DNA from: a virus
Length of the DNA: 64,000 nt
Reading direction: 5' to 3' (one strand)
IMG/VR virus record: IMGVR_UViG_3300047491_001507
Of the stretch, positions 11,637 to 64,000 are shown one piece after another; position 1 is the stretch's first letter; every line of letters begins with the position of its first letter. The translations under genes and the position numbers were made by a program. Under the pieces are notes generated by a model. That model was not told the DNA's origin. It saw nothing but the letters and a program-made list of their open reading frames with translations, and did no database searches.

Positions 11637-11918
11637 ATGATTACTGGAGAAGGGGGGTTTATCAGTAGGATGATGCCGCCTACTGATTGGAATCATGGTC
11701 CGATACCGGTAGAGTGTTTTGATAAGTCACTAAGTAAACAACAGATATTTGAAATGCTAAAATCTGTCTATCTTGAGCCAGATCGTGTTAGGAAATTGGC
11801 AGCAAGTGATGATGAAACAGAAATTTGGCGTACAAAATTTGCTATAGAAATTGTAGCAGAAATGGATGCTGATACGATTTGGTTTTTCAATTTGCAGAAT
11901 GAGAAGGAATCGGGATAA
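11637..11918 (+). CDS. hypothetical protein
   Basis: ORF 11589.. trimmed to the ATG at 11637 preceded by an AAGGAG SD. Confidence 0.5.
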   Translation: MITGEGGFISRMMPPTDWNHGPIPVECFDKSLSKQQIFEMLKSVYLEPDRVRKLAASDDETEIWRTKFAIEIVAEMDADTIWFFNLQNEKESG

Positions 11919-12196
11919 TGCGTATTTTTGACTGTGACCAAGACCAAGAAAAGATGAAAGGAACGCATGGTTTTGGCTATGATACAGAGTTTGGCACAGG
12001 CACAGGTTATGGCCGAGGCAATGGCGGCGGTCCTTGTGATGGAATATTGTCAGATTGCAATGGGCTTGGTGACGTATGTGGCCGTGGACATGGAAACGGC
12101 ATGTATGAAACTAATTATGGATTTCCCGAAAGTTGCAATAAAATCTTTGAAATTCCCAAATTGGCTGGAACTTTCGGTTTAGAAGTATATGATTGA
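11918..12196 (+). CDS. Gly-rich GxGxG small protein family member
   Basis: GFGYDTEFGTGTGYGRGNGGGPCDG...GHGNG low-complexity, like the 55-62 kb array. Confidence 0.5.
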   Translation: MRIFDCDQDQEKMKGTHGFGYDTEFGTGTGYGRGNGGGPCDGILSDCNGLGDVCGRGHGNGMYETNYGFPESCNKIFEIPKLAGTFGLEVYD

Positions 12197-16845: not shown

Positions 16846-17175
16846 ATGACCAAATTAAAAATGGAAGATTTGTTGAAAAAACATGGACATGATTTTACTT
16901 GTAGATCAGGTTTTGGTTTTGGTGATGATTCTGCTTGTGGTGGCGATAAAAAGGGTACTGGTAAAGGATGTGGTTTTGCTGTAGGTGCTGGCACAATATC
17001 TGATCAAAATTCTGCCACTTTCAGAGATGATATTTATAATGGAGGAGGTTATGGAGGAGGTTATGGAGGAATTGAAGGGTTTGGAAACCACAATGGTCAA
17101 GACTCATTTGATTATTTTGGCTATGGACAGAGAACAGGACTTTTCGGAACGGAAGATGGCAGAGGCATAGGATGA
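16846..17175 (+). CDS. Gly-rich GxGxG small protein family member
   Basis: GFGFGDDSACGGDKKGTGKGCGFAVGAG...GGGYGGGYGG. Confidence 0.5.
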   Translation: MTKLKMEDLLKKHGHDFTCRSGFGFGDDSACGGDKKGTGKGCGFAVGAGTISDQNSATFRDDIYNGGGYGGGYGGIEGFGNHNGQDSFDYFGYGQRTGLFGTEDGRGIG

Positions 17176-17462
17176 TTTACAGAGATTTTGGTAGCGGCTG
17201 TCTTTCTGGTAGGGGCGATCTGGAAGGAAGAGGTTATGATGCAAGTGGGGATATAATTTCTTATGGTTATTCCCATGGTGTTCCGCTTGGAAGCGAGAAT
17301 GGACATGGGCATGGTTCAGGTGATGATTGGTTTGTAGGTAAATCTTGGTTTATAGATAAAAAAGGCATTGGCAGTGGCGAAGCTTTTGGTAGTGGAGATA
17401 ATAATGGCAGGGGAGATGGGTCGGGTGGTTTGGGTTTGTCTATAGGCACAGGTCATTCTTAA
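17172..17462 (+). CDS. Gly-rich GxGxG small protein family member
   Basis: GRGDLEGRGYDASGD...GHGHGSGDD...GSGEAFGSGDNNGRGDGSGG. Confidence 0.5.
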   Translation: MIYRDFGSGCLSGRGDLEGRGYDASGDIISYGYSHGVPLGSENGHGHGSGDDWFVGKSWFIDKKGIGSGEAFGSGDNNGRGDGSGGLGLSIGTGHS

Positions 17463-51722: not shown

Positions 51723-51731
51723 GACTACCTT

Positions 51732-51950: not shown

Positions 51951-51959
51951 AGCATCTCC

Positions 51960-52190
51960 TTAGTTTAATAGTGTTTTTTGAGCTTCGCTAATTTTCCGCT
52001 TTAATTTGCAGTTTTCTATTATAAATTCGCCTGCCTCACGTTGAAACCTAAAGGCTTCACAACGCTGATGCTCCAAATCACATGCATTTTGAACGGCTCT
52101 TCTGTGTATGATATACATACTCAGGGTTCCAATTGTTATTCCTGTTATGGCACACCCAAGCATGAACGCTCCACCAATAATCACTGGCAT
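51960..52190 (-). CDS. small TM-plus-coiled-coil protein, paralog of 51732..51950
   Basis: See the paralog alignment above. Confidence 0.45.
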   Translation of the reverse strand: MPVIIGGAFMLGCAITGITIGTLSMYIIHRRAVQNACDLEHQRCEAFRFQREAGEFIIENCKLKRKISEAQKTLLN

Positions 52191-52555: not shown

Positions 52556-52803
52556 CAGTGATAAGTTCTATAAGATTGATCTAAGAAAATTACATTGCCA
52601 TCCTGATCCATGTATTCGCTACAAAAAGTATTATCGTCATTAGGACAAGACGGTACAAACTTCGAATAACATGTGACCGTCATTGTTTCGCTATGCCATC
52701 TATAAGGAGCATCTGGGCCTTCCCAGACCCATTTGCCAGGGAATTGTTTTCGTAATTGGTCGATTACTCGACGCATTTTGGGCTTTTTGCCATTCAATTT
52801 CAT
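52552..52803 (-). CDS. hypothetical protein
   Basis: 83-aa ORF; ATGA overlap. Confidence 0.5.
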   Translation of the reverse strand: MKLNGKKPKMRRVIDQLRKQFPGKWVWEGPDAPYRWHSETMTVTCYSKFVPSCPNDDNTFCSEYMDQDGNVIFLDQSYRTYHC

Positions 52804-53222
52804 GGCTTTTTTTCTTCCAAAGATTTGGCAATTTTATTTAAAGATTCCATTTGTATGGCAATTGCCTCCTGTTGTTTCTGAAGAGCAGAATAATCAATAG
52901 TAATTCCATGTTCGTGAATAAATGTCATTGCAGCTTCATCGTTGTCAAAAATCAAATACATAAAATCATCAGCATAAAGCAATTCAACTGTGTGATAATC
53001 ATAGACTATTTCTTTCCCAGATTTTTTTCGAATTCGTTTTTCACATGCCAAAAAATAATGTTCGTGACAACTTGGACAAAGCAATTCTTCCAATTGTGAG
53101 AAACCATTACGTCTAGCAGCCAACTTGAAAGTGCTGGCTCTTGGTAGTTCAATTCTACAATATGCCCAAGGACTTGCAGCTAAAAGTTGCTCTTCTTTAA
53201 TAATCTGGACAAATAAATCCAA
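52800..53222 (-). CDS. hypothetical protein with CPSCHEH motif
   Basis: 140-aa ORF. Confidence 0.5.
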   Translation of the reverse strand: MDLFVQIIKEEQLLAASPWAYCRIELPRASTFKLAARRNGFSQLEELLCPSCHEHYFLACEKRIRKKSGKEIVYDYHTVELLYADDFMYLIFDNDEAAMTFIHEHGITIDYSALQKQQEAIAIQMESLNKIAKSLEEKKP

Positions 53223-53469
53223 CTTTCTGACTCTTGTTTTTCCTGTTCTTTATATAATTGCTGTATTGACTTTTGTAAGTTGTCAATGCCTTTTTGGATT
53301 TTTGTTAATTGTTTACGAAGACTCATGATTTTCTCCTTCTTTCTCACAGCCTGCATTAAACATAGTTTTTAATTCACTGTAAATAGCAACCCAGGCTACA
53401 TCTGGGATTTCTACGCAATTTGATTTGCACCAATCACGAATACGCTGAAGACTTGCTGCAATGTATTTT

Positions 53470-53709
53470 TCACTCATCACAAATCCCTTTTATTAAAACT
53501 ATTTTGCCTGCTATGGGAATGCGAGTTTCGTCACACAAATTTCGTATTTCGAAAATTCGTTCTCGCAATGCGATGATATCAGAAGTTAAATCTTTTATAT
53601 TTTGATGTTGTTTGATTATTAAATCAAATTTTGATTCCAAAGAATGTATGTGGTATATCAATACGACAATCAAACCAAACAAAAAACTCAGTAAACATGG
53701 CAAAAACAT
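53470..53709 (-). CDS. small TM protein
   Basis: N-terminal TM helix and coiled region; theme similar to 53731..54072. Confidence 0.4.
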   Translation of the reverse strand: MFLPCLLSFLFGLIVVLIYHIHSLESKFDLIIKQHQNIKDLTSDIIALRERIFEIRNLCDETRIPIAGKIVLIKGICDE

Positions 53710-53730
53710 GATTATTCTTTCGTTATTTTT

Positions 53731-54072
53731 TCATTCATCATCGAAACAACCCCTGATTACTCGCCAAATTTCTTCCCTATCTCTATCACAAATTTGATCA
53801 AATTTAACATATCCTTGTAAGACCAAGGTTTGTGCTGCTTTGATACATTTTTTATCTAAATCCGAACGATGAATTGGTTGTTTGTCCAATAGTCTGATTC
53901 TTGATTCTAATGTTGTAGTTAATGCTTTGAGAGAATCTAGTTCTTGTCGAACTGTAAGGAAATGATCATTTTCCAAAAATAATTTTATAGTGCCGACATC
54001 ATTGTGCATGTACAAGAAAAACAATAACAAAAGTATAAAACCAATACTCAATAATAATACTGGAAACCACAT
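53731..54072 (-). CDS. TM protein with coiled coil
   Basis: 113-aa ORF with a hydrophobic N-terminus. Confidence 0.45.
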   Translation of the reverse strand: MWFPVLLLSIGFILLLLFFLYMHNDVGTIKLFLENDHFLTVRQELDSLKALTTTLESRIRLLDKQPIHRSDLDKKCIKAAQTLVLQGYVKFDQICDRDREEIWRVIRGCFDDE

Positions 54073-54190
54073 TAAATTATCCTTCTAAAAAGACTCTCTT
54101 TAGTATGTACAACAAGAGACACACATCAGCAAATATCAAAAAACTCACTATAATTGCCAGAGTTTTCCAAATTCGATCATGCATGTTAAA

Positions 54191-54454
54191 CTATTCCTCA
54201 AAGAATTCTATGTCAGTGACGCTTGTTTTAACTTCTGTCTTTACACATCCATCATCATCACTAAAACCACCAGCTTCAGTTAAAATTTCCGCAATATATT
54301 CTAAATTATCAATCTCCGAAGATAGCAATTGTTTAGCACTCAAGTTTTTTACGCCATAATCTGCTACTTCTGTTTCAAACCAACCAGTGATCGTTAAACT
54401 GGATTTAAATCTGACTTTCTTTGTCATTATTTTTGCCTTTTTCATCATTTCCAA
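54191..54454 (-). CDS. hypothetical acidic protein
   Basis: 87-aa ORF. Confidence 0.4.
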   Translation of the reverse strand: MEMMKKAKIMTKKVRFKSSLTITGWFETEVADYGVKNLSAKQLLSSEIDNLEYIAEILTEAGGFSDDDGCVKTEVKTSVTDIEFFEE

Positions 54455-54818
54455 TTGTGTACACCATGGCTATATAAGCACGTTTACTACTACTGGGAAT
54501 TTCCTTAATGATGTTTTCTTCATTCCTGACAAATTCAATAAATCTGTTGATGTCAGCGAATTCGGATTTCATACCGCCTCTTTTTTCGCTAACCCAATAC
54601 AAAATCCCGCACCAACCATATTTAAAGAATAAATCTCCTACCTCGCTTAATTCTTCATCAGAGACATATTCGCAATCAGCAAGTGCCCAACCCCAAGTAT
54701 CATTCATATTGAGGGTTTGCAACCACTTTGGCCCTTCATCTTCCAACAATTCTGATTCCTCATCGAAATAGAAAACTCCTGCTGCCCGTAACATCTGTCT
54801 TGCTTTTTCTGTATTCAT
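54405..54818 (-). CDS. hypothetical protein
   Basis: 137-aa ORF, Trp-rich. Confidence 0.5.
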   Translation of the reverse strand: MNTEKARQMLRAAGVFYFDEESELLEDEGPKWLQTLNMNDTWGWALADCEYVSDEELSEVGDLFFKYGWCGILYWVSEKRGGMKSEFADINRFIEFVRNEENIIKEIPSSSKRAYIAMVYTIGNDEKGKNNDKESQI

Positions 54819-55037
54819 TTACCATTCCTTTCCAATAGCATCATATACACACGTTGTTATCGCCAAAAAACCTACAGCATACAAAACAATTGCCGACCAG
54901 AAAGCCAATGTAGCTCCAGTAAATGCAGCTTTGCTTAGCCATTCTACCAAAAAAGGCCAAGCTACGAAAACTCCTACGATCTGAATTGAATTAAAAACTC
55001 TTAACATAAAAGACTCCTTTAGTATACAAAATTTCAA
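54819..55037 (-). CDS. small membrane protein (2 TM)
   Basis: 72-aa hydrophobic ORF just downstream (on the - strand) of a terminator hairpin. Confidence 0.45.
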   Translation of the reverse strand: MKFCILKESFMLRVFNSIQIVGVFVAWPFLVEWLSKAAFTGATLAFWSAIVLYAVGFLAITTCVYDAIGKEW

Positions 55038-55047
55038 CTATTTAAAA

Positions 55048-55092
55048 AAGCCCATTTCGAACAAAAACTATCGCTTGAAATGGGCTTTTTGG
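55048..55092. terminator. bidirectional rho-independent terminator
   Basis: AGCCCATTTC ... GAAATGGGCT 10-bp stem with T-runs on both strands. Confidence 0.55.
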
Positions 55093-55275
55093 AAAAATTT
55101 TTACTAAAAATCTTCTGTTTTTTCTTCTGGCTTTTCCTCTGGCTTTTCTTTAGGCTTTCCAAGCAAAAGCAAAAGGTCACGAATACTCACAACAGCAGAG
55201 CATCCAATGCCTTCTTTAGCCAAGTTTTCTTCCAAATCTTTACATCGCATGTCTTCTGGGATAGGCACATCCATT

Positions 55276-55659
55276 TCATTCCTCCAAATTCATAAAAGGG
55301 AAACCAAAAAAATCGTTTGTCATATATCCACAACCATATCCACGACCATCACCATCATAACTTCCTTGTCCTGAACCCAATTGATCAGAACTAAAATTTA
55401 ATCCATCGTGTCCAGGTATGCCACAGTATCCAGGCATGCCGCCATATCCAAACCCATGGCAATTTCCTAAACCAAACCCATTGCCACAACACACAGCGTC
55501 TTCGTTACGGCCAAGCCATTTGTCATTATATAATTTAATGCTTAGTATCTGAACATCATCATCGCCATGCCCATCTCCATTGTCAAAACCTCTCCCTGGA
55601 GTATTGCAGTTGTGATCTCCAAGCCCTTTGCCGTCACCGAAACCATCATTAGATTTCAT
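55276..55659 (-). CDS. Gly-rich GxGxG family protein
   Basis: GFGDGKGLGDHNC...GNGFGLGNCHGFGYGG...GDGRGYGCG. Confidence 0.55.
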   Translation of the reverse strand: MKSNDGFGDGKGLGDHNCNTPGRGFDNGDGHGDDDVQILSIKLYNDKWLGRNEDAVCCGNGFGLGNCHGFGYGGMPGYCGIPGHDGLNFSSDQLGSGQGSYDGDGRGYGCGYMTNDFFGFPFMNLEE

Positions 55660-55661
55660 AC

Positions 55662-55880
55662 CTAATTTACTCCAAATTTACAACCACAATTTGGACAACC
55701 TTCTATATATTCTGGGTCTTCTTTTGAAACAATCGTATCACAATGTTCATGGCAGTAAAAGCCTATTTCTCCAGCTTCTCTGTCATAAGCAATTGCTTCT
55801 ACAGGGTTTTGACAGTCATCATACTGACATCTATCTGGATATTCAAGCGGTTCATCTCGATTAACAATTTTAATTGTCAT
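55662..55880 (-). CDS. Cys-rich zinc-binding small protein
   Basis: CQYDDCQ...CHEHC...CPNCGC. Confidence 0.5.
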   Translation of the reverse strand: MTIKIVNRDEPLEYPDRCQYDDCQNPVEAIAYDREAGEIGFYCHEHCDTIVSKEDPEYIEGCPNCGCKFGVN

Positions 55881-56158
55881 ACTTTTACCTCCAAGCCATG
55901 TAATTCTGAATTTATTCCTTCGTACATGCTAGTTAGGTCATTGGCACGATGAGTGTCAATTTCATGTTGTTCAAACGGTAATGGCATGCATCTAAACCAA
56001 ACCGACACCACTTGTCCATTATAAGTTTCCACATCTAGATGTGTCGAACTATGGACTGTACCCCCATCACCGTAATATCGTGTGCCAGTTTTTGCGAATT
56101 CTTTTTGACGTTTTCTATAATTTCTGTCATGCCAGTAGTTTTTTAACCAGCCAAACAT
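55877..56158 (-). CDS. hypothetical protein
   Basis: 93-aa ORF; ATGA overlap. Confidence 0.5.
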   Translation of the reverse strand: MFGWLKNYWHDRNYRKRQKEFAKTGTRYYGDGGTVHSSTHLDVETYNGQVVSVWFRCMPLPFEQHEIDTHRANDLTSMYEGINSELHGLEVKV

Positions 56159-56418
56159 GTTAAATCACTTTCTATTTGAAGAAGAAAATAAACATAATTT
56201 ACAGCCTAATGCTACGGCTAGTCCTGTCTCTTGTATAAATTCAAAAAACGTACCGAAACTTGCAATACAAGAAATAAGAAATAAAAATGCCAAAATTAAA
56301 ATATGATTTTTATCCCAATTTAATAACATTTTTAACCTCTTGTGTAAGCTTTAAACTAGTTATGCTTGAAATGTATCAATTTTGAATACTAATTTCAATT
56401 CCAAAACGTAAATAATAC

Positions 56419-56700
56419 ATGAAATTCAAAGATTTTTTAATTGAAAGCTGCAAAGAGCCCGATTTCAACACCCTCAAGAAAAACAAAGTCAAATTAACAG
56501 ACGAAGAACGAAAAGAGGTGATGAAATCAGATGCAGTCTGGCATCATGGGTCGAATGGAGAACCGACTGCGGCTGTGTGGAAATCAGAAGTCGATGGTAA
56601 AATTTGGTACGTTACAAATACTCATCGAGCTTATAATGTTCGACCCACTCTAAAAGGTGCTATCAGCAGATATCACAAATTCATTAAAGGCACAGCTTAA
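56419..56700 (+). CDS. hypothetical protein (lone + strand gene in the - block)
   Basis: 93-aa ORF after an AT-rich gap (56160-56418) that may hold divergent promoters. Confidence 0.45.
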   Translation: MKFKDFLIESCKEPDFNTLKKNKVKLTDEERKEVMKSDAVWHHGSNGEPTAAVWKSEVDGKIWYVTNTHRAYNVRPTLKGAISRYHKFIKGTA

Positions 56701-57000
56701 TTACTTTGTTCTTACAAGTTTTGTCTCTATTAATTGGTTCTTTGGCCCTCTGACATAGAAATAATATCTAGAAACATATGTTTTATCCATATCTACATTG
56801 TGCCATTCCCCCATCCCCGTTCCACACCCTTCACCATTAATTACATCAAAAAACACATATCCGCTCCCGTCCTTGTGTCCTGAGCCATAACCACAGCCAA
56901 AACCTACTCCACTTACATCGCCACATATAATGTTTCCCTCTCCAAATCCACATCCTCTTTCGCTATCGAACTTAACACGACCGCTTAATATTGAATCCAT
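56701..57000 (-). CDS. Gly-rich GxGxG family protein
   Basis: GCGFGEGNIICGDVSGVGFGCGYGSGHKDGSGY. Confidence 0.5.
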   Translation of the reverse strand: MDSILSGRVKFDSERGCGFGEGNIICGDVSGVGFGCGYGSGHKDGSGYVFFDVINGEGCGTGMGEWHNVDMDKTYVSRYYFYVRGPKNQLIETKLVRTK

Positions 57001-57010
57001 AATTCTCCCA

Positions 57011-57286
57011 TTAATCTAAAAAAGGACATGTTCCACAACCATAAGCGTCATCCTCAATACATCCACAACCATAACCAGCTTCTAATCCACCACCTGAACC
57101 TGATCCATATCCTAGACCATGTCCGATGTCAGAATTAGGACCATATCCAGCATCCATGCCGCCACAAAATCCTGATTCGACGCCACGACCGCATCCAAAA
57201 CCAGTACTCCAGTTATTTCCCTGACCTGTAGCTGATCCACAGCCGTGACTTCCGCCAAGTAATTCATAAAGTTCAATATCATTCAT
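57011..57286 (-). CDS. Gly-rich GxGxG family protein
   Basis: ORF trimmed to MNDIELYELLGG...; ATGA overlap with the upstream gene. Confidence 0.5.
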   Translation of the reverse strand: MNDIELYELLGGSHGCGSATGQGNNWSTGFGCGRGVESGFCGGMDAGYGPNSDIGHGLGYGSGSGGGLEAGYGCGCIEDDAYGCGTCPFLD

Positions 57287-57579
57287 AAACAATCCTTTCC
57301 ATTCCCATTTCCCTCTCCAGCACCAATGCCACGCCCACACCACTCAATAGTATCTAAATCAATAATATCGTAATATTGTAATTCCTGAAGAATTCCTGCA
57401 CCAGAGCCATCTCCCCAAATATTTCCTGCACCAGAGCCATCTCCCCAATTGTATCCACAACCAGTAATACAATCGCAATAATCAAGATTTGATACACGGC
57501 CAAAAGCCCAACCATGATCTGAAGAATCTATTCCAGGGCTAATGCCATGACCCCAGCCACAACCATCAGGTTCGCTCAT
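57283..57579 (-). CDS. Gly-rich GxGxG family protein
   Basis: GCGWGHGISPG...NWGDGSGAGNIWGDGSGAG carries an internal duplication. Confidence 0.5.
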   Translation of the reverse strand: MSEPDGCGWGHGISPGIDSSDHGWAFGRVSNLDYCDCITGCGYNWGDGSGAGNIWGDGSGAGILQELQYYDIIDLDTIEWCGRGIGAGEGNGNGKDCL

Positions 57580-57851
57580 AAATCACCACCTCCAAATCCA
57601 GTTCCATCCTCATCACATCCAAATTCGCCATCTAGTCCATATTCACTTTCACTTCCACCGCCACGCCCATCATCTTGGTCACTTACATCGCTCTGATTGC
57701 CATAGCCACTACACAAAAACGTACCAGATCCATCTCCGTCTCCATAGCCATGACCTCGACCTGTTTCTGTTTCCATGTCAATACTAGGAATGCAGCCTGG
57801 ACCACTAGAAATACATTCAAGAAATGCATGGGTTTCCATTTCCGTCTCCAA
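57576..57851 (-). CDS. Gly-rich GxGxG family protein
   Basis: GRGHGYGDGDGSG...GRGGGSESEYG. Confidence 0.5.
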   Translation of the reverse strand: METEMETHAFLECISSGPGCIPSIDMETETGRGHGYGDGDGSGTFLCSGYGNQSDVSDQDDGRGGGSESEYGLDGEFGCDEDGTGFGGGDL

Positions 57852-57853
57852 AT

Positions 57854-58093
57854 CTATGGACCACTAGTTTCGTAGTTGTAATTCTGATTTCCATTTCCAG
57901 ATCCTTTTCCATAACCCCACCCGTCGCCACATCCTTCTCCATAACCTGTGCCTCTCATACTGCCAAATCCACAACAATCTTCATGGCCGCAGCCATGACC
58001 GCTTTTTGTGTAGATCCATAAATCGTCACCACCACCACAACCGGTGCCATCCTCTGAACCATGACCAGCAAAACTATTTAAACATTCTTCCAT
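57854..58093 (-). CDS. Gly-rich GxGxG family protein
   Basis: GHGSEDGTGCGGGDD...GHGCGHEDCCGFGSMRGTGYGEGCGDGWGYGKGSGNG. Confidence 0.5.
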   Translation of the reverse strand: MEECLNSFAGHGSEDGTGCGGGDDLWIYTKSGHGCGHEDCCGFGSMRGTGYGEGCGDGWGYGKGSGNGNQNYNYETSGP

Positions 58094-58404
58094 TAATATT
58101 CTCCAATTCCAATTGCAGTTTCATGACCTCTTTGGCCTAATCGAACCACTCGCTCAAGTTCAAGTCCATGTCCATAGCCATCATTATAATACGAACCAGA
58201 ACCAGTGCCTATTCCTGAGCCATGACCATCACTGCCATAACCGTACCCATCTGTACAGCCATTGCCATAGCCATTGCCGATATTATCACCTTCGCAATAT
58301 ATTCCAGCACCTTTTCCGCTGCCAATCTCTGTATCGCAACTGTGTTGGGCACATCCTGAACCATCGAGATAGCCCATTCCGCTTCCATTATTCATTAGAA
58401 TCAC
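58093..58404 (-). CDS. Gly-rich GxGxG family protein (close paralog of 61673..61966)
   Basis: GNGYGNGCTDGYGYGSDGHGSGIGTGSGSYY. Confidence 0.5.
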   Translation of the reverse strand: MILMNNGSGMGYLDGSGCAQHSCDTEIGSGKGAGIYCEGDNIGNGYGNGCTDGYGYGSDGHGSGIGTGSGSYYNDGYGHGLELERVVRLGQRGHETAIGIGEY

Positions 58405-58767
58405 CTATACAATTAATAATTCCTTTTTTCCATAACAATGATCGAAACAGTGTTCCTCTCCTGTCCCATCATGTTTACTATAAGTAAAACTGTCGCCTGA
58501 GCCATATCCTTTGCCAGAAAATACACCAGAACCAGAGCCAGGATTAATTCCAAAGCCTGTTCCACAACCTGTATAATCAAATCCAGTATGTCCTTCAGCA
58601 TTGCCTGTTCCTGCTTCAGAATCCATGTGGCCGTGAAGTCCATAGCCTGTTCCACTCACAGAACAAGAACCGCCAGCATGCCAGCCATCTCCAGAGCCCA
58701 CTCCTGCATTGAACATATAACCAAAACCTGAACTACGACCACAACCAAATTTACCATTAATCTTCAT
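58405..58767 (-). CDS. Gly-rich GxGxG family protein (close paralog of 58781..59134)
   Basis: MKINGKFGCGRSSGFGYMF...; GGTGAGGAAAAA SD. Confidence 0.55.
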   Translation of the reverse strand: MKINGKFGCGRSSGFGYMFNAGVGSGDGWHAGGSCSVSGTGYGLHGHMDSEAGTGNAEGHTGFDYTGCGTGFGINPGSGSGVFSGKGYGSGDSFTYSKHDGTGEEHCFDHCYGKKELLIV

Positions 58768-58780
58768 GATTTTTCCTCAC

Positions 58781-59134
58781 CTATACAATAAACAATTCAT
58801 TTCCATTACTATAGTCCCTTCCTGTTCCTGCTCCATCATGTTCGCTATAAAGATAACTTTCGCCATAACCATACCCATCGCCCTTACCAGTGCCAGAGCC
58901 TGTTCTTACTCCAGAACCTGTTCCACAACCTGAATAATTAAAACCAGTATGACCTACAGTATTACCTGTGCCTTTATCAGAATACCATCTGCTGGTAAGC
59001 CCATATCCTGTTCCCCTTTTAGAACAAAAACCGCTAACAAAAAACAAACCATCTCCATTGCCTGTTCCTGCCTCAGTAAACATATAGCCAGAACCCGAAC
59101 TACGACCACAACCAAATTTGCCAATATTATTCAT
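58781..59134 (-). CDS. Gly-rich GxGxG family protein
   Basis: Trimmed to MNNIGKFGCGRSSGSGYMF... Confidence 0.5.
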   Translation of the reverse strand: MNNIGKFGCGRSSGSGYMFTEAGTGNGDGLFFVSGFCSKRGTGYGLTSRWYSDKGTGNTVGHTGFNYSGCGTGSGVRTGSGTGKGDGYGYGESYLYSEHDGAGTGRDYSNGNELFIV

Positions 59135-59544
59135 GATTTTTTCACACAATAAGAAAAACTGCTGTAACTAGCTTTTTTATAAGAAACTATCCAGGTGGGT
59201 ATAATATTTCCCTCTTCAAAAATAGAATTCTCTCGATCTAATTCCATTTCAACATCTTCAAACTTCCATTCTTCAAGAAGATCTCCAATTCCATCATATA
59301 ATCTAAGAGTTGCCGTTATTGCCTGAGATGCATTGCTGAATTTATCAAATTCTTCTTTTGCTTTGTCTTTTTCTTCATACATCGTAAAATACTGTATTAT
59401 CTTGATTTTTCCGTCTAAAAACTTTAACTCGCCATTATTTTCTTCGGCAACTGGACGTTCATCCAGTCTTACAAAACTTTCTCGAAATACTATGTTGCTG
59501 TTTTTATCACTCGCTTCAAATGTCCATCGGAATTTACGCATCAA
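59131..59544 (-). CDS. hypothetical protein (not Gly-rich) embedded in the Gly-rich array
   Basis: 137-aa ORF. Confidence 0.5.
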   Translation of the reverse strand: MMRKFRWTFEASDKNSNIVFRESFVRLDERPVAEENNGELKFLDGKIKIIQYFTMYEEKDKAKEEFDKFSNASQAITATLRLYDGIGDLLEEWKFEDVEMELDRENSIFEEGNIIPTWIVSYKKASYSSFSYCVKKS

Positions 59545-59569
59545 TATTCTCCATTATTAAACAAAATTT

Positions 59570-59881
59570 TTATCCATTTCCAGTGCAATCTTGAATTACT
59601 CCCGCTCCCTCTCCACAAATTCCACGACCTAAATCAATATGTAAGCCTTCGCCATGGCCAGTGCCAGTGCCATATCCATCAGAGCATTCGCCGTAGCTAC
59701 AACTATGACCTACTCCTTCTTTTCGCCCAAAACCGCTTACTAAAAAAGATTCTCCAAAACCCTTGCCATCTTTATGTCCAAAACCACTTGCTATGCCAGA
59801 ACTAGCGGCAAGCATCTTCGGCAACGATGGTACAAATGCTAATTTTTCTTCCAACTGTTTCAGGTCAATTGTGTGTTTCAT
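59570..59881 (-). CDS. Gly-rich GxGxG family protein
   Basis: SGFGHKDGKGFGE...GYGTGTGHGEG. Confidence 0.5.
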   Translation of the reverse strand: MKHTIDLKQLEEKLAFVPSLPKMLAASSGIASGFGHKDGKGFGESFLVSGFGRKEGVGHSCSYGECSDGYGTGTGHGEGLHIDLGRGICGEGAGVIQDCTGNG

Positions 59882-60188
59882 TAATTAAATTCCTCTTGTG
59901 TAGAAGTCCATAGCCTGTTCCAATCATAGAACAAGTGAATCTTGGAGTGTCATAATGTAAATCTTGTACAAGATGTTTTTCATCATCATCACCATAACCA
60001 GACCCATCCTCTAAACCATGACTTGAAACATAGTCGCAAAAATTTCCACTTGACCCGCCACAATCTTCGCTCCCAAATCCATTGCCAATACCATATCCAA
60101 ATCCAAATTCATATTCTGATCCAAATCCACTACTAAAATCATCAATATCACTTAAACCACAACCAAATCCATTACTATCACTGTTCAT
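59865..60188 (-). CDS. Gly-rich GxGxG family protein (paralog of 60938..61222)
   Basis: Trimmed to MNSDSNGFGCGLSDIDDFSSGFGSEYEFGFGYGIGNGFGSED. Confidence 0.5.
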   Translation of the reverse strand: MNSDSNGFGCGLSDIDDFSSGFGSEYEFGFGYGIGNGFGSEDCGGSSGNFCDYVSSHGLEDGSGYGDDDEKHLVQDLHYDTPRFTCSMIGTGYGLLHKRNLINETHN

Positions 60189-60466
60189 GTATAATCTCCA
60201 TGACCACAACATTTATCTTTAGTACTTTCGCCACCAGAACCTGAAGGAATACCAAATCCATAACCATGATTTAGCAGGAAGTCTGCATATTCATCTCCTT
60301 CTCCATAACCTATGCCTAAATCGTAATTTTGTACATAATGAAGTCCATGGCCCGTTCCGTCTTTATAACCATAACCGTTTGCGAAAACGCCAATTCCATA
60401 GCCATATCCATTTCTATGACCGCTTTCTAGACCAACACTTTCAGGATAACCACAATTTTTCGTCAT
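60185..60466 (-). CDS. Gly-rich GxGxG family protein (paralog of 60463..60741)
   Basis: SGHRNGYGYGIGVFANGYGYKDGTGHG...HGYGFGIPSGSGGESTKDKCCGHGDY. Confidence 0.5.
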   Translation of the reverse strand: MTKNCGYPESVGLESGHRNGYGYGIGVFANGYGYKDGTGHGLHYVQNYDLGIGYGEGDEYADFLLNHGYGFGIPSGSGGESTKDKCCGHGDYT

Positions 60467-60741
60467 TCAATACTCCTTGTGCATTCATATTCATTATAAT
60501 CTCCATGACCACAACATTTATTTTTAGTACTTTCTAGACCAGAACCTTCAGGGTTACCAAATCCATAACCATGATTTAGCATTGATGCATCTGCATCTTC
60601 CTCTCCATGACCTATGGTTCCGTCATAATCCTCGATATTTCCATAACCTGACCCATCTCTATAACCATGACCATTTGCGAAAATGCCATTCCCATGACCA
60701 TTTCCATTTCTGTGACCACTTTCTAAATCAGAATAACTCAT
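60463..60741 (-). CDS. Gly-rich GxGxG family protein
   Basis: SGHRNGNGHGNGIFANGHGYRDGSGYG...KNKCCGHGDY. Confidence 0.5.
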   Translation of the reverse strand: MSYSDLESGHRNGNGHGNGIFANGHGYRDGSGYGNIEDYDGTIGHGEEDADASMLNHGYGFGNPEGSGLESTKNKCCGHGDYNEYECTRSIE

Positions 60742-60922
60742 GTGTGTATTCCTTATTTGAATTGTAAACTTCTACATGGCCTTCTTCGGTATACTTCCCA
60801 ATACTATATGATTTGCATAAACCTGATTCTTGCAAAGAAATAGCACAATTCTTAGCGTCTGCCAAACTTTTAAAAGAAGTTCCATAGCACGCAATTTGAG
60901 TAGTATCTGTTAAAGTAAACAT
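60728..60922 (-). CDS. hypothetical small protein
   Basis: 64-aa ORF. Confidence 0.45.
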   Translation of the reverse strand: MFTLTDTTQIACYGTSFKSLADAKNCAISLQESGLCKSYSIGKYTEEGHVEVYNSNKEYTHELF

Positions 60923-60937
60923 TGTAAATAATTCCTT

Positions 60938-61222
60938 TCATACCCACATATACTTTTTGGTGCTTCCATGACATCTACCACCGCATGGGGCACCTTGCCC
61001 CTGTGCCCATCCTTCATCACTACCATAACCAGACCCATTTTCTGAACCATTAGTAGAATGGTATTTATAAAAGTTTTCACTCGATCCATTGTAATTGTCA
61101 TTGCCATATCCTGAAGCAATGCCATACCCGAATCCGCAGCCACATTTTGATCCAAATCCACCACTAAAATCGTCAATATCTCCTAAACCACAACCAAATC
61201 CATCCACCTCAATTTCAGACAT
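60938..61222 (-). CDS. Gly-rich GxGxG family protein
   Basis: Trimmed to MSEIEVDGFGCGLGDIDDFSGGFGSKCGCGFGYGIASGYG with an AAGGTGG SD. Confidence 0.5.
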   Translation of the reverse strand: MSEIEVDGFGCGLGDIDDFSGGFGSKCGCGFGYGIASGYGNDNYNGSSENFYKYHSTNGSENGSGYGSDEGWAQGQGAPCGGRCHGSTKKYMWV

Positions 61223-61306
61223 AAATTTTTCCACCTTTACTCTATTATAACATAAAAAGCAATGAAAAAAGCTGAAGAACTCATGGAAAAACACAAAGGA
61301 GAAGGT

Positions 61307-61522
61307 TTAGATTTTTGATTTTTTAACCAAATCTAAACCAATTTTCACCACAGAAGTCATTGCACAACTTCTGTCAATGTAATGCCTGTTTCTTAATATA
61401 TTTCGCTCTGCACCTCCTTTGCTTATCCACCCCTCATTGCCACAAATGTCACAACGCATTTTAATCTTGTGTTGTGAACTGACTTTTTTGTGTTTTTCTC
61501 TAAATTCTTTAATGTTCATCAC
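61307..61522 (-). CDS. small Cys-containing protein
   Basis: CDICGNEGW...RSC. Confidence 0.45.
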   Translation of the reverse strand: MMNIKEFREKHKKVSSQHKIKMRCDICGNEGWISKGGAERNILRNRHYIDRSCAMTSVVKIGLDLVKKSKI

Positions 61523-61672
61523 TTCCTCTTAAACTTGGAAACGGTTTGTTCAATTCGGGCAAACATATCCTTTTAAGTATGTTCTGGCGACGAAAAATCA
61601 CTTCTTGCATTGAAAGAGTTGAAAACTTCTGCCTTCTTTGAACGCAAATCGAACACTGACATGGTTTGTATT

Positions 61673-61966
61673 TCATCGATATTTCCCCTCTCCATTTGGA
61701 GTTTCAAAACCATCTACTACGATGCCATTTGCATAATCACCACAGTAATAATACGAACCAGCACCGCTCCCGTCTCCTGAACCATGGCCACTAACACCAT
61801 AACCATAACCTTCCGCAGAACCATTGCCATAGCCGGTACAGAATTGATCTCCACAATATGTTCCACCGCCTTTTCCACGACCAGTATCTAATCCTGCTCC
61901 ATTGCAACATCCCTCTCCATGTCCATTGCCATATTCACCACATCCAGAACTGTATGTCCAACTCAT
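61673..61966 (-). CDS. Gly-rich GxGxG family protein
   Basis: SGCGEYGNGHGEGCCNGAGL...GYGNGSAEGYGYGVSGHGSGDGSGAGSYYY. Confidence 0.5.
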   Translation of the reverse strand: MSWTYSSGCGEYGNGHGEGCCNGAGLDTGRGKGGGTYCGDQFCTGYGNGSAEGYGYGVSGHGSGDGSGAGSYYYCGDYANGIVVDGFETPNGEGKYR

Positions 61967-62242
61967 TTAAATACTCCTAGCTAATCTGCCGCTCCCATCA
62001 CCATATTCTTGTGCCTCTATACAATAAAATGGCTCATCAAAAATTACTTTAACACCATCGTATCTTGTTACTTCAGTAACCAAATAAGTAGGAACGGTCA
62101 AAATCTTTGTTCTGTGGACATCCCATCCATTTTCTTTAATTATCTGTATTGCTTCATATTGTCCGTATCGTACTCGCTCCTCATGACCATCAGTATAGAT
62201 GTGAGTGCATGTCGTAGGTTTAGAAAATGTCAATTGTTTCAT
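61967..62242 (-). CDS. hypothetical protein
   Basis: 91-aa ORF contiguous with the upstream gene. Confidence 0.5.
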   Translation of the reverse strand: MKQLTFSKPTTCTHIYTDGHEERVRYGQYEAIQIIKENGWDVHRTKILTVPTYLVTEVTRYDGVKVIFDEPFYCIEAQEYGDGSGRLARSI

Positions 62243-62803
62243 TTACGCTCCACAATACTCTGATAAATGCTTAGGTTGTGGCAACATCTTCTGAAGAACT
62301 TTCCTCAATCTAAATCGATAAGGCTTTTCTTCAACATGTACTATTTCGCCATTTTCTATGCTTTCTTCCTGTACATTATCACATGTAAATCTGATAACTG
62401 CCCAACATAGACTGTCCCAAGGATTAGTGTGTTCTTTAGATAACCATTTCACTCCGCTATATTTAGTTTTTTTCTTTAATTGCCATTTATGATCATCATT
62501 ACAATCCAATTCCCAAGTTTCTGTTTCAAATTCCTCAGGAATTGTTGGAAATTGTACAATTGCCATATTGCCAGTAGAAGCCTCTCTTTCAGTAACAACA
62601 TGATCCAAAACTTGTTTGCCTTCAGTAAATGAAATCAAATCATTACATTGAAACAAATCGCTATTCATTGTGTAATAATCTGGATCATTATAAATGGTTA
62701 CGCCAAGAATTACATTGACATCAATTGGACCACCATGGAGTAACCCCGTCACAAAACTAAAATGTTCCACTTTTGCTCTTAAAAATGTAGCTGTAGTTTC
62801 CAT
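62243..62803 (-). CDS. hypothetical protein
   Basis: 186-aa ORF. Confidence 0.5.
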   Translation of the reverse strand: METTATFLRAKVEHFSFVTGLLHGGPIDVNVILGVTIYNDPDYYTMNSDLFQCNDLISFTEGKQVLDHVVTEREASTGNMAIVQFPTIPEEFETETWELDCNDDHKWQLKKKTKYSGVKWLSKEHTNPWDSLCWAVIRFTCDNVQEESIENGEIVHVEEKPYRFRLRKVLQKMLPQPKHLSEYCGA

Positions 62804-62804
62804 C

Positions 62805-63356
62805 TCAAAATCCCTCCTCTTTTTTTTGAGTTATACTCTTAATACCCCATCCAGCATAATCTCGTTCCTCAACCTTCACCACTATATCCCCTGAATTTTG
62901 TAAGATTTCAATCGCCTCTAACTTGGCCTCTTCAAGAGAATTAGCACAAATGTTCATCTCGACTTCCCGCACAACACCACGATTAATTTCGTCTTTAATT
63001 TTATCTATTTGTTCTTGTGAAAGCGGAGAATGCGTTATTTTACCATTCTCAATTTTTATGTTTTGCATACATGCAAGTGTAGCTGTTGTTTGTTTATAAT
63101 GAATCAACAAGTAGTATTCATTTTTTCTTGGTTCACGCCATGCTAAATATTGTTCGCCACTGTCGCTAATTTCAATCGGCAATCCAGTGCCTTCGCAACA
63201 ACGGCATGGCTCTCCAGCAATCGTTCTGTCACCACCACAAATTTTACAATTTTTCATAACTAACAAATCAGGGTTTTGAATAATAACTTGTAATTTAACA
63301 TCTTCCATAAACTGCTCACGACTAATGCCAAACAATATATCAAACATATCTTCCAT
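62805..63356 (-). CDS. protein with DnaJ-type CxxCxGxG zinc finger
   Basis: CKICGGDRTIAGEPCRCCEGTG. Confidence 0.5.
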   Translation of the reverse strand: MEDMFDILFGISREQFMEDVKLQVIIQNPDLLVMKNCKICGGDRTIAGEPCRCCEGTGLPIEISDSGEQYLAWREPRKNEYYLLIHYKQTTATLACMQNIKIENGKITHSPLSQEQIDKIKDEINRGVVREVEMNICANSLEEAKLEAIEILQNSGDIVVKVEERDYAGWGIKSITQKKEEGF

Positions 63357-63926
63357 TCAAAATCCCTCCTGATTAGCAAACATCACAGCCCAATGCCAAC
63401 CATTTTCAGTAGGCTCATATCGAGCAACAGGCGATCCCTCTTCCCCAAAATGAGGCTTAATTCTGGTATATGGCTCCTGAGGTGCAACATCATTACTAAA
63501 AACCATAATCTTGCTGCCTCTCGGACAATTTGGAAACAAAACCCAAAAGGCTGTAAAATAATGCCCTTTATATACCTTCAAAACCTCAAATACCTCTTCG
63601 TTATGCTCAATCATCTGTTCGTGACCCATAACAAGCTTTCCTTTAATTTTTAAAAAATTCATGTACATACGATAATAGAAAAAATTGCCCCGCATAATTG
63701 CTGGCTCTCCAAATGGAAATCGTGCCTTAAGCACATTAATGGCATACCAGCAAGAATATTGGTCATTCTGTGCAATTACCTTTTCGCCTTCATACCAACG
63801 ACCTTTAATTATATCCTTGGCATAATAATACGAAAGCCTTGCATCTTGAGCAATTTTCTCCTCTCCATCTAACCAACGACCTTTAACTACGTCTTTTGCA
63901 TGGAAATAAGCCTCTTCTGGAGTCAT
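63357..63926 (-). CDS. 33-aa repeat family protein (2-3 repeats) fused to an unrelated C-terminal domain
   Basis: MTPEEAYFHAKDVVKGRWLDGEEKIAQDARLSYYYAKDIIKGRWYEGEKVIAQ. Confidence 0.55.
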   Translation of the reverse strand: MTPEEAYFHAKDVVKGRWLDGEEKIAQDARLSYYYAKDIIKGRWYEGEKVIAQNDQYSCWYAINVLKARFPFGEPAIMRGNFFYYRMYMNFLKIKGKLVMGHEQMIEHNEEVFEVLKVYKGHYFTAFWVLFPNCPRGSKIMVFSNDVAPQEPYTRIKPHFGEEGSPVARYEPTENGWHWAVMFANQEGF

Positions 63927-63936
63927 AAATTCTCCT

Positions 63937-64000
63937 TCAATCCAAATAACGATCTATATCGTCTTCGCCTTGATTTCCATCCCCACAACCATCGCCATAT
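63937..64000 (-). CDS. C-terminal end of another Gly-rich family gene extending beyond the window
   Basis: The reverse strand reads ...YGDGCGDGNQGEDDIDRYLD*. Confidence 0.4.
   Translation of the reverse strand, partial: YGDGCGDGNQGEDDIDRYLD

What the first reader, a model, noticed from the sequence alone, without database searches (positions are those of the whole stretch)
55276..61966. Tandem array of about 16 small Gly/Asp/Cys/His-rich GxGxG proteins, part of a ~20-member paralog family
Roughly 6.7 kb of - strand is filled by 80-125-aa genes, mostly with their own SD and often ATGA-coupled. Their products are built from irregular G-x-G-x-G stretches where x is Y, S, D, N, H or C. Examples are GYGYGSDGHGSGIGTGSGS, GHGCGHEDCCGFG and GDGSGAGNIWGDGSGAG. 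Close paralog pairs are 58405/58781, 60185/60463, 59865/60938 and 58093/61673. Three more members sit on the + strand (11918, 16846, 17172) and another runs off the window end at 63937. There is no signal peptide and no obvious enzymatic motif. I do not recognise this as a known phage protein family. The composition suggests several possibilities: metal-binding, RTX-like or antifreeze-like polyglycine folds, microcin-like peptides, or a rapidly diversifying structural or decoy family. The many tandem copies point to strong, recent selection for copy number or diversity.
Basis: seen in the sequence. Interest (0 to 1): 0.85.

Follow-up and report, generated by a model that had tools for sequence, protein, structure and literature searches.

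The report
Orphan phage family of alternating-glycine proteins
A roughly 306-kb phage carries at least 19 genes for small acidic proteins in which every second residue tends to be glycine; the genes are real and under selection, have no relatives outside this contig in the databases searched, and their function is unknown.

Summary
The window has 18 complete and one truncated small ORF (79-127 aa) with 18-32% Gly in a strict period-2 (GxG) pattern. Fifteen lie on the - strand at 55276-61966, one runs off the window end, and three are on the + strand. No other ORF in any of the six frames has this signature.

They are real genes. An independent gene caller finds the same ORFs, codon usage matches other window genes, most have SD-like motifs, and dN/dS in paralog pairs is 0.36-0.67.

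The other members share only Gly periodicity, composition, size, and an N-terminal xGCG motif in about two thirds. The duplications are old (dS 0.5-1.1), not recent.

Pfam, NCBIfam, PHROGs, PDB, GenBank phages, IMG/VR, the metagenome and genome contig scans, and an exhaustive HMMER search of 1.84 billion proteins gave no relative outside this contig. The one meaningful non-self hit matches only the repeat region of an abundant, uncharacterised gut-phage family.

RTX, collagen/polyglycine-II, metallothionein and RiPP-precursor readings all fail their defining tests.

Best guess, at low confidence: non-enzymatic, beta-prone binding or self-assembling proteins with a conserved Gly scaffold and variable exposed residues.

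The parts
55276..55659 (-). GX-repeat protein, 127 aa, pI 4.4, 18 GxG, 6 Cys
   Evidence: (independent gene call)
56701..57000 (-). GX-repeat protein, 99 aa; its non-Gly C-terminal third is unique to this member
57011..57286 (-). GX-repeat protein, 91 aa (start as called by JGI/Logan), 7 Cys
57283..57579 (-). GX-repeat protein, 98 aa, ATGA-coupled; internal 30-nt duplication (GDGSGAGNIW x2)
57576..57839 (-). GX-repeat protein, 87 aa (ATG start as called; TTG at 57851 is also possible), net charge -19
57854..58093 (-). GX-repeat protein, 79 aa, 30% Gly, GHGCGHEDCCGFG
58093..58395 (-). GX-repeat protein, 100 aa; paralog of 61673-61966 (55% identity)
58405..58767 (-). GX-repeat protein, 120 aa; paralog of 58781-59134 (58% identity); AF2 pLDDT 37.7
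58781..59134 (-). GX-repeat protein, 117 aa; paralog of 58405-58767
59570..59881 (-). GX-repeat protein, 103 aa, with a non-Gly N-terminal 28 aa
59865..60188 (-). GX-repeat protein, 107 aa; paralog of 60938-61222 (49% identity)
60185..60466 (-). GX-repeat protein, 93 aa; paralog of 60463-60741 (66% identity), ATGA-coupled
60463..60741 (-). GX-repeat protein, 92 aa; paralog of 60185-60466
60938..61222 (-). GX-repeat protein, 94 aa; paralog of 59865-60188
61673..61966 (-). GX-repeat protein, 97 aa, 32% Gly; paralog of 58093-58395
63937..64000 (-). C-terminal end of a further GX-repeat protein that runs off the window (...YGDGCGDGNQGEDDIDRYLD*)
   Evidence: L005 adds 45 nt
11918..12196 (+). Dispersed GX-repeat protein, 92 aa; assigned by composition and periodicity only
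16846..17175 (+). Dispersed GX-repeat protein, 109 aa; assigned by composition and periodicity only
17172..17462 (+). Dispersed GX-repeat protein, 96 aa, ATGA-coupled to 16846-17175

Best explanation
Shown: a lineage-specific set of at least 19 real genes for small (79-127 aa), acidic proteins with no signal peptide or TM segment, so presumably cytoplasmic. They sit in blocks of small accessory genes of a roughly 306-kb phage. Each protein has 3-6 short alternating-glycine segments (GxGxG(xG), 5-13 residues) joined by short linkers. Selection holds the Gly positions far more tightly than the residues between them.

Inferred mechanism: the period-2 Gly segments adopt extended, beta-like conformations. 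One face is all glycine. The other displays Tyr, Phe, Thr, Cys and His, and the acidic residues sit in the connecting loops. The proteins are not enzymes. They act by binding: either by self-association into a silk-, lamprin- or matrix-like assembly, or as a repertoire of small binders or decoys against host targets. In that second case the Gly scaffold is conserved and the exposed residues diverge between copies. The choice of target and the stage of infection are not known.
For: Real genes:
- The same ORFs are called independently on an identical Logan contig.
- Synonymous codon usage matches 18 reference genes of the window.
- SD-like motifs and ATGA overlaps are present.
- dN/dS is 0.36-0.67 in the four pairs, and Gly is retained through synonymous changes.

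Scaffold versus surface:
- Omega is 0.23 for Gly columns and 0.59 for non-Gly columns, rising to 0.9-1.2 in two pairs.
- Conservation in pairs is G 87%, Y 64%, F 57%, C 48%, H 36%.

Beta-like periodicity:
- Even lags are enriched out to 12, and GG is depleted 4.5x.
- Y, F, T, C and H are enriched at x inside GxG, while D, E and N are depleted there relative to all non-Gly residues.
- The low-confidence AF2 strands (E23-26, 38-42, 68-73, 78-80, 89-93) coincide with the GxGxG blocks of 58405-58767.

Other properties:
- Acidic, with no TM or signal segment.
- No enzymatic or other domain in Pfam, NCBIfam, PHROGs or PDB.

Analogy: a gut-phage protein with a (G[YSD])n repeat was auto-named 'Lamprin', after a self-aggregating Gly/Tyr matrix protein.
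Against: - AF2 gives no confident fold (pLDDT 37.7 with 18 paralogs).
- In the gut-phage family, a deep alignment still leaves the G[YSD] repeat at pLDDT 21-33 between confidently folded domains. That favours plain disorder.
- The Uversky charge-hydropathy plot is borderline, with 9 of 18 on the disordered side.
- No orthologues exist, so conservation across genomes could not be tested.
- There are no expression or proteomic data.
- Homology among most members is not demonstrable.
- dN/dS rests on 53-114 codons per pair with an approximate method.
Confidence: 0.35

Rival explanations
1. Purely disordered low-complexity 'sticker-spacer' proteins. Aromatic residues act as stickers and Gly/Ser as spacers. 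They would drive or enter condensates in the infected cell, or act as flexible acidic decoys, without adopting beta structure.
For: - AF2 pLDDT is 37.7 for a window member.
- The analogous (G[YSD])n region of the gut-phage family is predicted disordered (pLDDT 21-33) even with 120 sequences, while its flanking domains reach above 90.
- Tyr and Phe are the best conserved non-Gly residues.
- The proteins are acidic and lack hydrophobic cores. Ala, Val, Leu and Ile are depleted 0.27-0.59x relative to reference genes.
Against: Disordered linkers do not need strict register. GG depletion of 4.5x, and even-lag enrichment persisting to lag 12, indicate a structural constraint. Half the members fall on the folded side of the charge-hydropathy boundary.
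Confidence: 0.25
2. Small metal-binding (Zn, Cu or Ca) proteins that fold around metal ions using Cys, His and Asp side chains held in Gly-rich loops. They would buffer or sequester metals during infection.
For: - Cys is the most enriched non-Gly residue (3.1x on a non-Gly basis). Asp is 1.95x and His 1.86x.
- CC, CxC and CGHG motifs occur, for example KCCGHGDY conserved in 60185/60463, GHGCGHEDCCGFG and GEGCCNG.
- An N-terminal xGCG motif is present in about two thirds of members.
Against: - Cys makes up only 1-8% of residues, and one member has a single Cys.
- In paralog pairs Cys (48%) and His (36%) are no better conserved than the non-Gly average, and less than Tyr and Phe.
- There is no metallothionein, RTX, EF-hand or zinc-finger profile hit.
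- GG and lag-9 depletion exclude the RTX nonapeptide.
Confidence: 0.12
3. Virion-associated structural or packaged proteins: a decoration or matrix layer, or acidic internal proteins ejected with the DNA.
For: Gly/Tyr/Cys-rich small proteins in tandem gene arrays are typically matrix or structural components in eukaryotes (keratin-associated proteins, chorion, lamprin; own knowledge). The acidic charge resembles packaged internal peptides of T4 (own knowledge).
Against: The array lies among dozens of small ORFan genes, with no capsid, tail or portal gene detected in the 64-kb window. There is no PHROGs structural hit and no collagen-like lag-3 periodicity.
Confidence: 0.1
4. Precursor peptides of ribosomally synthesised, post-translationally modified peptides. 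Candidates are microcin B17-like azole peptides or radical-SAM cyclophane peptides, matured by enzymes encoded elsewhere in the phage.
For: The Gly/Ser/Cys/aromatic-rich composition resembles McbA and Gly-rich rSAM substrates (own knowledge). Three radical-SAM genes are in the window at 42036-43019, 45220-46008 and 47353-48351. The first gives weak generic hits (19-32 bits) to cyclophane and SPASM maturases.
Against: - There is no conserved leader. N-termini are unrelated outside the pairs.
- The proteins are 79-127 aa.
- The nearest radical-SAM gene is more than 7 kb away, and those hits are far below cut-offs and equal to the MoaA, viperin or RlmN hits.
- The 327-aa rSAM has no room for a SPASM domain after residue ~290.
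- No YcaO was found among the 19 ORFs of 200 aa or more.
- No NCBIfam family, which would include any Gly-rich rSAM-substrate model in that library, matched the eight family members scanned.
Confidence: 0.05
5. Not genes at all: the ORFs are a by-product of a DNA-level 6-nt periodic repeat (NCCNNN on the + strand).
For: Only a 6-nt periodicity is found at the DNA level. There are no homologues elsewhere.
Against: - Codon usage matches the genome.
- dN/dS is below 1, with Gly kept through synonymous changes.
- The genes are tightly packed, share one strand, and have SD motifs and start/stop overlaps.
- Alternative frames carry only short overlapping ORFs.
- An independent gene caller agrees.
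Confidence: 0.02

Closest known systems
Uncharacterised gut Bacteroides-(pro)phage proteins of about 240 aa with a (G[YSD])n repeat (P0010, P0018 and more than 2,400 clusters; no Pfam family; downstream of DUF6948 genes)
   Same: - Phage-encoded, with long runs of strictly alternating Gly in which Tyr, Ser and Asp fill the other positions.
- Encoded among early or accessory genes.
- P0010 is the only meaningful non-self hit of the family profile in 1.84 billion proteins (E 1.6e-4, repeat region only).
- The repeat is predicted without a confident fold.
   Different: - The gut proteins have an N-terminal helix and a conserved ~150-aa globular C-domain. That domain is absent from all six frames of the window.
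- Their repeat is regular, 70-90 aa long, and varies in length between near-identical proteins.
- The window proteins are stand-alone and irregular, richer in Cys, His, Phe and Asn, and amplified to at least 19 copies.
- The similarity is compositional, and homology is not shown.
Silk fibroin-type GX dipeptide repeats and other self-assembling Gly/Tyr matrix proteins (lamprin, high-Gly/Tyr keratin-associated proteins, insect chorion)
   Same: - Period-2 glycine as in fibroin.
- Small, Gly/Tyr/Cys-rich proteins in tandem multigene arrays, as in keratin-associated proteins and chorion (own knowledge).
- A gut-phage relative was auto-named 'Lamprin'.
   Different: - There is no sequence homology.
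- Runs are only 3-7 Gly long, with bulky or polar x residues instead of Ala and Ser.
- The proteins are acidic and have no signal peptide (presumably cytoplasmic), and GG is avoided whereas KAPs and lamprin are GG-rich.
- Self-assembly has not been tested.
RTX beta-roll (GGxGxDxUx) calcium-binding repeats
   Same: Gly/Asp-rich and acidic, with GxGxD-like strings.
   Different: - No PF00353 hit at E<=1.
- GG is depleted 4.5x, and there is no lag-9 periodicity (ratio 0.64).
- There is no secretion signal or T1SS context.
Polyglycine-II / collagen-like Gly-rich folds (snow-flea antifreeze, phage S16/T2 gp38 adhesin glycine-rich motifs, collagen-like tail fibres)
   Same: Glycine-rich phage or small proteins.
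   Different: Those folds need Gly every third residue or in runs. Here lag-3 (0.32) and lag-1 (0.22) are strongly depleted. There is no Collagen or adhesin profile hit.
FUS-like low-complexity [G/S]Y[G/S] domains
   Same: Aromatic residues flanked by Gly/Ser, predicted without a stable fold, and Tyr/Phe the best-conserved non-Gly residues.
   Different: - Eukaryotic and Gln/Ser-rich, typically over 150 aa and nearly uncharged.
- The window proteins are short and acidic, contain Cys and His, and keep a strict period-2 register.

Membership tests
RTX / HemolysinCabind beta-roll | Tandem nonapeptides GGxGxDxUx (GG doublets, 9-residue period) matching PF00353 | tested here: not met
   No Pfam hit at E<=1 for 10 members. 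GG 27 observed vs 122 expected; lag-9 ratio 0.64.
Collagen-like / polyglycine-II proteins (including gp38-type adhesins and snow-flea AFP) | Gly every third residue or in poly-Gly runs | tested here: not met
   Lag-3 ratio 0.32 and lag-1 ratio 0.22. No Pfam or PHROGs hit.
Silk-like GX dipeptide repeat proteins | Gly at every second position | tested here: met
   Lag-2 ratio 2.18, with even lags enriched to lag 12. GxG z 2.7-5.7 in all 18.
Silk-like GX dipeptide repeat proteins | Long uninterrupted (GA/GS)n blocks that form beta-crystallites; secreted fibre protein | tested here: not met
   Runs of only 3-7 Gly (one of 11). x is mainly Y, S, F, T, C or H. Ala is depleted to 0.27x. No signal peptide.
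RiPP precursors (microcin B17/LAP type or rSAM Gly-rich-repeat/cyclophane type) | Conserved leader peptide shared by the precursors | tested here: not met
   N-terminal regions align only within the four pairs. Residue similarity outside the pairs is z of about 0.
RiPP precursors (microcin B17/LAP type or rSAM Gly-rich-repeat/cyclophane type) | Adjacent maturase (YcaO/McbBCD or radical-SAM/SPASM) and a match to a precursor model | tested here: not met
   No YcaO among the 19 ORFs of 200 aa or more. The three rSAM ORFs are 7-13 kb away and score 19-39 bits against cut-offs of 170-650. No NCBIfam hit for the eight family members scanned. The rest of the 306-kb contig was not available.
Metallothioneins | High Cys content (about 15-30%) in conserved CxC/CC clusters | tested here: not met
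   Cys 1-8% (1-7 per protein). Cys is conserved at 48% in pairs, no better than the non-Gly average.
Gut-phage (G[YSD])n family (P0018 type) | Conserved ~150-aa C-terminal domain (IKxxNG..VYxIDxxPTII...FAHGETL...WHHVLTGSC) | tested here: not met
   An HMM of the C-domain against all six-frame segments of the window gives a best E of 4.4.
Gut-phage (G[YSD])n family (P0018 type) | Alternating-Gly repeat region | tested here: inconclusive
   The family profile hits the P0010 repeat at E 1.6e-4 (38 bits). The match is low-complexity only, so homology is not established.
Secreted or membrane proteins | Signal peptide or TM helix | tested here: not met
   The maximum 19-residue Kyte-Doolittle mean is <=1.12 in all 18.

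The most novel reading that the evidence does not exclude
The phage encodes a repertoire of miniature 'scaffold-and-display' proteins. Short Gly-alternating beta segments form an invariant backbone. The exposed Tyr, Phe, His, Cys and Thr residues and the acidic loops diversify between copies. Each copy would therefore bind a different host target, or together they would co-assemble into a silk- or lamprin-like intracellular matrix or compartment during infection. This would be a previously undescribed fold or assembly principle in viruses of bacteria. It may be related to the very abundant, equally uncharacterised (G[YSD])n proteins of gut phages.
Probability: 0.15. Interest if true: 0.8.

Novelty: new variant of a known kind. 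Interest (0 to 1): 0.5.

Why it matters
If these proteins self-assemble or act as a diversified binder set, they would represent a new structural principle in phage biology. They would also give a handle on the far more abundant (G[YSD])n proteins of human-gut Bacteroides phages, which have no Pfam family and which the literature searches here did not find described. The strict period-2 register, with selection on the Gly scaffold only, makes a simple and testable biophysical hypothesis. As it stands, this is an orphan family in one metagenomic phage with no functional evidence, so its importance is potential rather than demonstrated.

Tried and rejected
Family and structure libraries:
- Pfam, NCBIfam and PHROGs scans of members gave no hits.
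- PDB sequence searches with the family profile and three single members gave only GS linkers or noise.

Searches for relatives:
- Megablast and tblastn against 50,697 GenBank phages found nothing.
- The word-indexed search of 5.8 billion proteins with the family alignment returned only self hits.
- The exhaustive HMMER search of 1.84 billion representatives returned self hits, three spurious repeat proteins and P0010.
- IMG/VR scans with single proteins and three pair alignments found nothing. The 18-member alignment was too variable to scan.
- The first JGI metagenome scan found nothing, not even the source contig. The second gave one spurious T9SS protein.
- Two GTDB genome scans found nothing.
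- Homologues of 59131-59544, which is embedded in the array, were sought to find syntenic phages. Only self was found.
- I tried to read beyond the window end, but only a Logan contig identical to the window was retrievable.

Structure prediction:
- AF2 of 58405-58767 gave pLDDT 37.7, too low for a fold search.
- AF2 plus Foldseek of the gut-phage protein showed a disordered repeat and a C-domain with no PDB match.

Other:
- Promoter and terminator scans were at chance level.
- Rfam found only the three tRNAs.
- Literature searches for DUF6948, the peptide motifs, huge phages plus glycine-rich, and GrrA/GrrM found nothing relevant.

Rejected readings: RTX, collagen/PGII, metallothionein, RiPP precursor and spurious ORFs. 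Reasons are in the membership tests.

Full report
**What is there**

Between 55276 and 61966 the - strand carries 15 ORFs of 79-127 aa with 18-32% glycine and 11-19 overlapping GxG triplets each.
- Three further ORFs of the same kind lie on the + strand: 11918-12196, 16846-17175 and 17172-17462.
- A 19th ends at 63937 and runs off the window end.
- The - strand array is not continuous. Eight unrelated small ORFs are interspersed. One of them, 56419-56700, is on the opposite strand and splits the array into at least two transcription units.
- A scan of every stop-to-stop segment of 35 aa or more, in all six frames, with loose thresholds recovers exactly the 18 complete members and nothing else. 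The signature has no background in this 64-kb window.

**Is it more than chance, and are these genes?**

The glycine pattern is far from random.
- In every member GxG exceeds composition-preserving shuffles by 2.7-5.7 SD.
- Pooled Gly autocorrelation is 2.18x at lag 2 and stays above 1.3x at every even lag to 12.
- Odd lags are depleted: lag 1 at 0.22x (27 GG against 122 expected) and lag 3 at 0.32x.

Several lines show the ORFs are genes.
- They are called identically by an independent gene caller on a Logan contig that is 100% identical to window 50806-64000.
- Most have a GGAG/AGGA-type motif 6-12 nt upstream, and several overlap by ATGA or TAATG.
- Their synonymous codon usage matches 18 longer genes of the window. 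Gly codons GGA/GGT/GGC/GGG run 35/34/23/7% against 37/26/27/10%. T-ending two-fold codons run 77-87% against 75-81%.
- In the four alignable pairs dN/dS is 0.36-0.67. Between 4/19 and 14/30 conserved Gly columns use different codons.

The spurious-ORF reading is rejected.

**How far is it a family?**

For the other comparisons the similarity is in the glycine pattern only. When Gly positions are fixed and the remaining residues permuted, the mean z is 0.93, and only the four pairs stand out clearly (z 7-19).

What unites all members is:
- size;
- acidity (pI 4.05-6.7, net charge 0 to -19);
- the period-2 register;
- the same skewed composition (Gly 4.6x, Cys 2.4x, Asp 1.5x and His 1.5x the reference genes; Ala, Pro, Val, Gln and Lys at 0.27-0.44x);
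- an xGC[G/x] motif at residue 7-20 in about two thirds of the members.

Descent from one ancestor by duplication and fast divergence is the economical reading, but it is inferred. The duplications are not recent. dS is 0.47-1.09, DNA identity is 64-78%, and there are no long DNA repeats, only 6-nt periodicity.

**Anatomy**

Each protein contains 3-6 short alternating segments (3-7 Gly, one of 11), which cover 26% of residues. Linkers mostly preserve the register.
- Inside GxG, the x position is enriched for Tyr (15%), Phe, Thr, Cys and His.
- The x position is depleted for Asp, Glu and Asn, which sit in the linkers.
- In the pairs, Gly is 87% conserved, Tyr 64%, Phe 57%, Cys 48% and His 36%.
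- Omega is 0.23 for Gly columns and 0.59 for the rest. It reaches about 0.9-1.2 in two pairs (small samples, Nei-Gojobori).
- There is no hydrophobic segment.

**Searches for relatives**

Nothing was found in Pfam, NCBIfam or PHROGs, or in PDB sequences. GenBank phages were also negative. So were IMG/VR, the JGI metagenome contigs and the GTDB genomes.

The family profile was then searched against 5.8 billion clustered proteins and, exhaustively, against 1.84 billion representatives.
- It returned only the window's own proteins, three obviously spurious repeat proteins, and P0010.
- That profile recovers only about 11 of its own 18 members at E<=1e-3. Distant relatives could therefore be missed.
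- Even the non-Gly ORF embedded in the array (59131-59544) has no homologue.

The within-genome evidence above has to stand in for it.

**The one lead**

P0010 matches only through its repeat region (E 1.6e-4). It belongs to a very large family, with more than 2,400 clusters among the 8,000 candidates scored, of ~240-aa proteins from human-gut Bacteroides (pro)phages.
- The architecture is a short N-terminal helix, 70-90 residues of regular (G[YSD])n, and a conserved ~150-aa C-domain.
- There is no Pfam family. In the two contigs inspected the gene sits just downstream of a DUF6948 gene; in the Bacteroides-prophage contig the neighbours include antirepressor (Bro-N/ANT), HTH, AAA_24 and HNH genes.
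- The repeat differs in length and order between proteins whose C-domains are nearly identical.
- AF2 with 120 sequences folds the helix (pLDDT 81) and the C-domain (above 90). It leaves the repeat at pLDDT 21-33.
- The C-domain has no PDB match.
- Related viral entries carry automatic names such as 'Lamprin' and 'ribonuclease inhibitor'.
- The C-domain is absent from all six frames of the window.

The window proteins are therefore not members of that family. The resemblance is compositional.

- RTX requires GG doublets and a 9-residue period. Both are depleted and PF00353 does not hit.
- Polyglycine-II, collagen-like and antifreeze-like folds require Gly every third residue or in runs. Lags 3 and 1 are the most depleted.
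- Metallothionein-like binding requires many conserved Cys. Here Cys is 1-8% and no better conserved than average.
- Microcin or RiPP precursors need a shared leader and a nearby maturase.
  - There is no shared leader.
  - There is no YcaO among the 19 ORFs of 200 aa or more.
  - The three radical-SAM genes at 42-48 kb give only generic, far sub-threshold hits equal to the MoaA, viperin or RlmN hits, and they are not adjacent.
- The 'rapidly diversifying' idea is compatible with the omega contrast between the Gly scaffold and the other positions.

**Most likely mechanism**

This part is inferred, not shown. Strict period-2 glycine with GG avoidance is what an extended beta-type segment with two different faces would produce.
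- The beta-forming residues Tyr, Phe, Thr and Cys sit on the non-Gly face.
- The acidic and Asn residues sit in the linkers.
- The low-confidence AF2 strands fall on the GxGxG blocks.

I therefore favour small non-enzymatic proteins that act by association. They would either self-assemble through Gly-face packing, as silk, lamprin or matrix proteins do, or serve as a set of binders or decoys with a conserved scaffold and variable surface.

The main rival is plain disorder, as a condensate scaffold or flexible acidic decoy. The AF2 results favour it. GG avoidance and the long-range register count against it. Metal binding, a virion role and RiPP precursors rank lower.

**Genome context**

The source is a 306,208-bp metagenomic contig.
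- The window carries three tRNAs and CoaB plus a CoaC-M23 fusion.
- It also carries PspA, three radical-SAM proteins, a NodU-like carbamoyltransferase and HD proteins.
- Its Thg1-like gene has its best matches in 485-635-kb uncultured huge phages and phiKZ-like jumbo phages.
- No capsid, tail or replication gene was identified in the window, so the timing of expression is unknown.

**Verdict**

This is a real and statistically unambiguous feature: an orphan, amplified set of alternating-glycine small proteins. It is new as a protein family. As a kind of sequence it belongs with glycine-rich GX-repeat low-complexity proteins, and phages of the human gut carry an abundant, equally uncharacterised analogue.

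Function is open, and the mechanistic proposal carries low confidence (0.35). Interest is moderate (0.5). It is unusual and cleanly testable, but it comes from a single uncultured phage with no comparative or expression data.

Noticed in passing
P0018/P0020/P0049/P0050 etc.; L004 10001-10720; L002 969-1472: A very abundant family (more than 2,400 clusters) of ~240-aa proteins from human-gut Bacteroides (pro)phages. Each has an N-terminal helix, a (G[YSD])n repeat that differs in length and order between proteins with near-identical C-domains, and a confidently folded C-domain with no PDB match. In both contigs inspected the gene is downstream of a DUF6948 gene. There is no Pfam family, and the literature searches run here (DUF6948, repeat motifs) found nothing on it.
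   Followed up: partly
window 7205-7960 and 10022-11131: Phage-encoded coenzyme-A pathway genes: a CoaB-like DFP C-domain protein, and a CoaC flavoprotein fused to an M23 peptidase-like domain.
   Followed up: partly
window 5365-6225: A Thg1-like tRNA-His guanylyltransferase. Its best tblastn matches are uncultured huge phages of 485-635 kb (LR745206.1 at 54%) and 201phi2-1-like jumbo phages.
   Followed up: partly
window 39732-48351: A cluster containing a NodU-like carbamoyltransferase, an HD protein and three divergent radical-SAM proteins (42036-43019, 45220-46008, 47353-48351). All are far below family cut-offs. It may be a nucleotide or nucleic-acid modification module.
   Followed up: partly
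window 25121-26881, 27273-29504, 32684-34048, 7938-8798: Several large proteins give weak hits to T4 Frd3 (PF05798) and/or HTH_35. They look like an expanded family of multi-repeat proteins.
   Followed up: no
window 15893-16267 and 16409-16684: Another small paralog pair: Cys-rich, zinc-ribbon-like, 51% identical over 75 aa. The ORFs 14825-15178 and 15178-15615 also look related by eye.
   Followed up: partly
window 63357-63926: A 189-aa protein in which DNA repeat D17 (63764-63908) marks an internal ~26-aa repeat (YAKD[VI][VI]KGRWxEGExxIAQ); a third copy is visible by eye.
   Followed up: no
window 62805-63356: A 183-aa protein carrying CKICGGDRTIAGEPCRCCEGTG, which resembles the DnaJ-type CxxCxGxG zinc-finger motif. 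It has no Pfam hit.
   Followed up: no
window 56419-56700 (+): A single opposite-strand 93-aa gene sits inside the - strand array. It abuts the stop of 56701-57000 with no gap. It has no Pfam hit and no phage tblastn match.
   Followed up: partly
window 21040-21804 and 17477-17926: A PspA/IM30-like protein, and a 149-aa protein with a twin-arginine-like N-terminus (MFSRRQFLTTTALGV...).
   Followed up: no
window 54000-64000: GC skew reaches -0.32 to -0.40 across the array, against -0.12 to -0.16 in the neighbouring - strand block. The excess of GGN codons explains this.
   Followed up: yes
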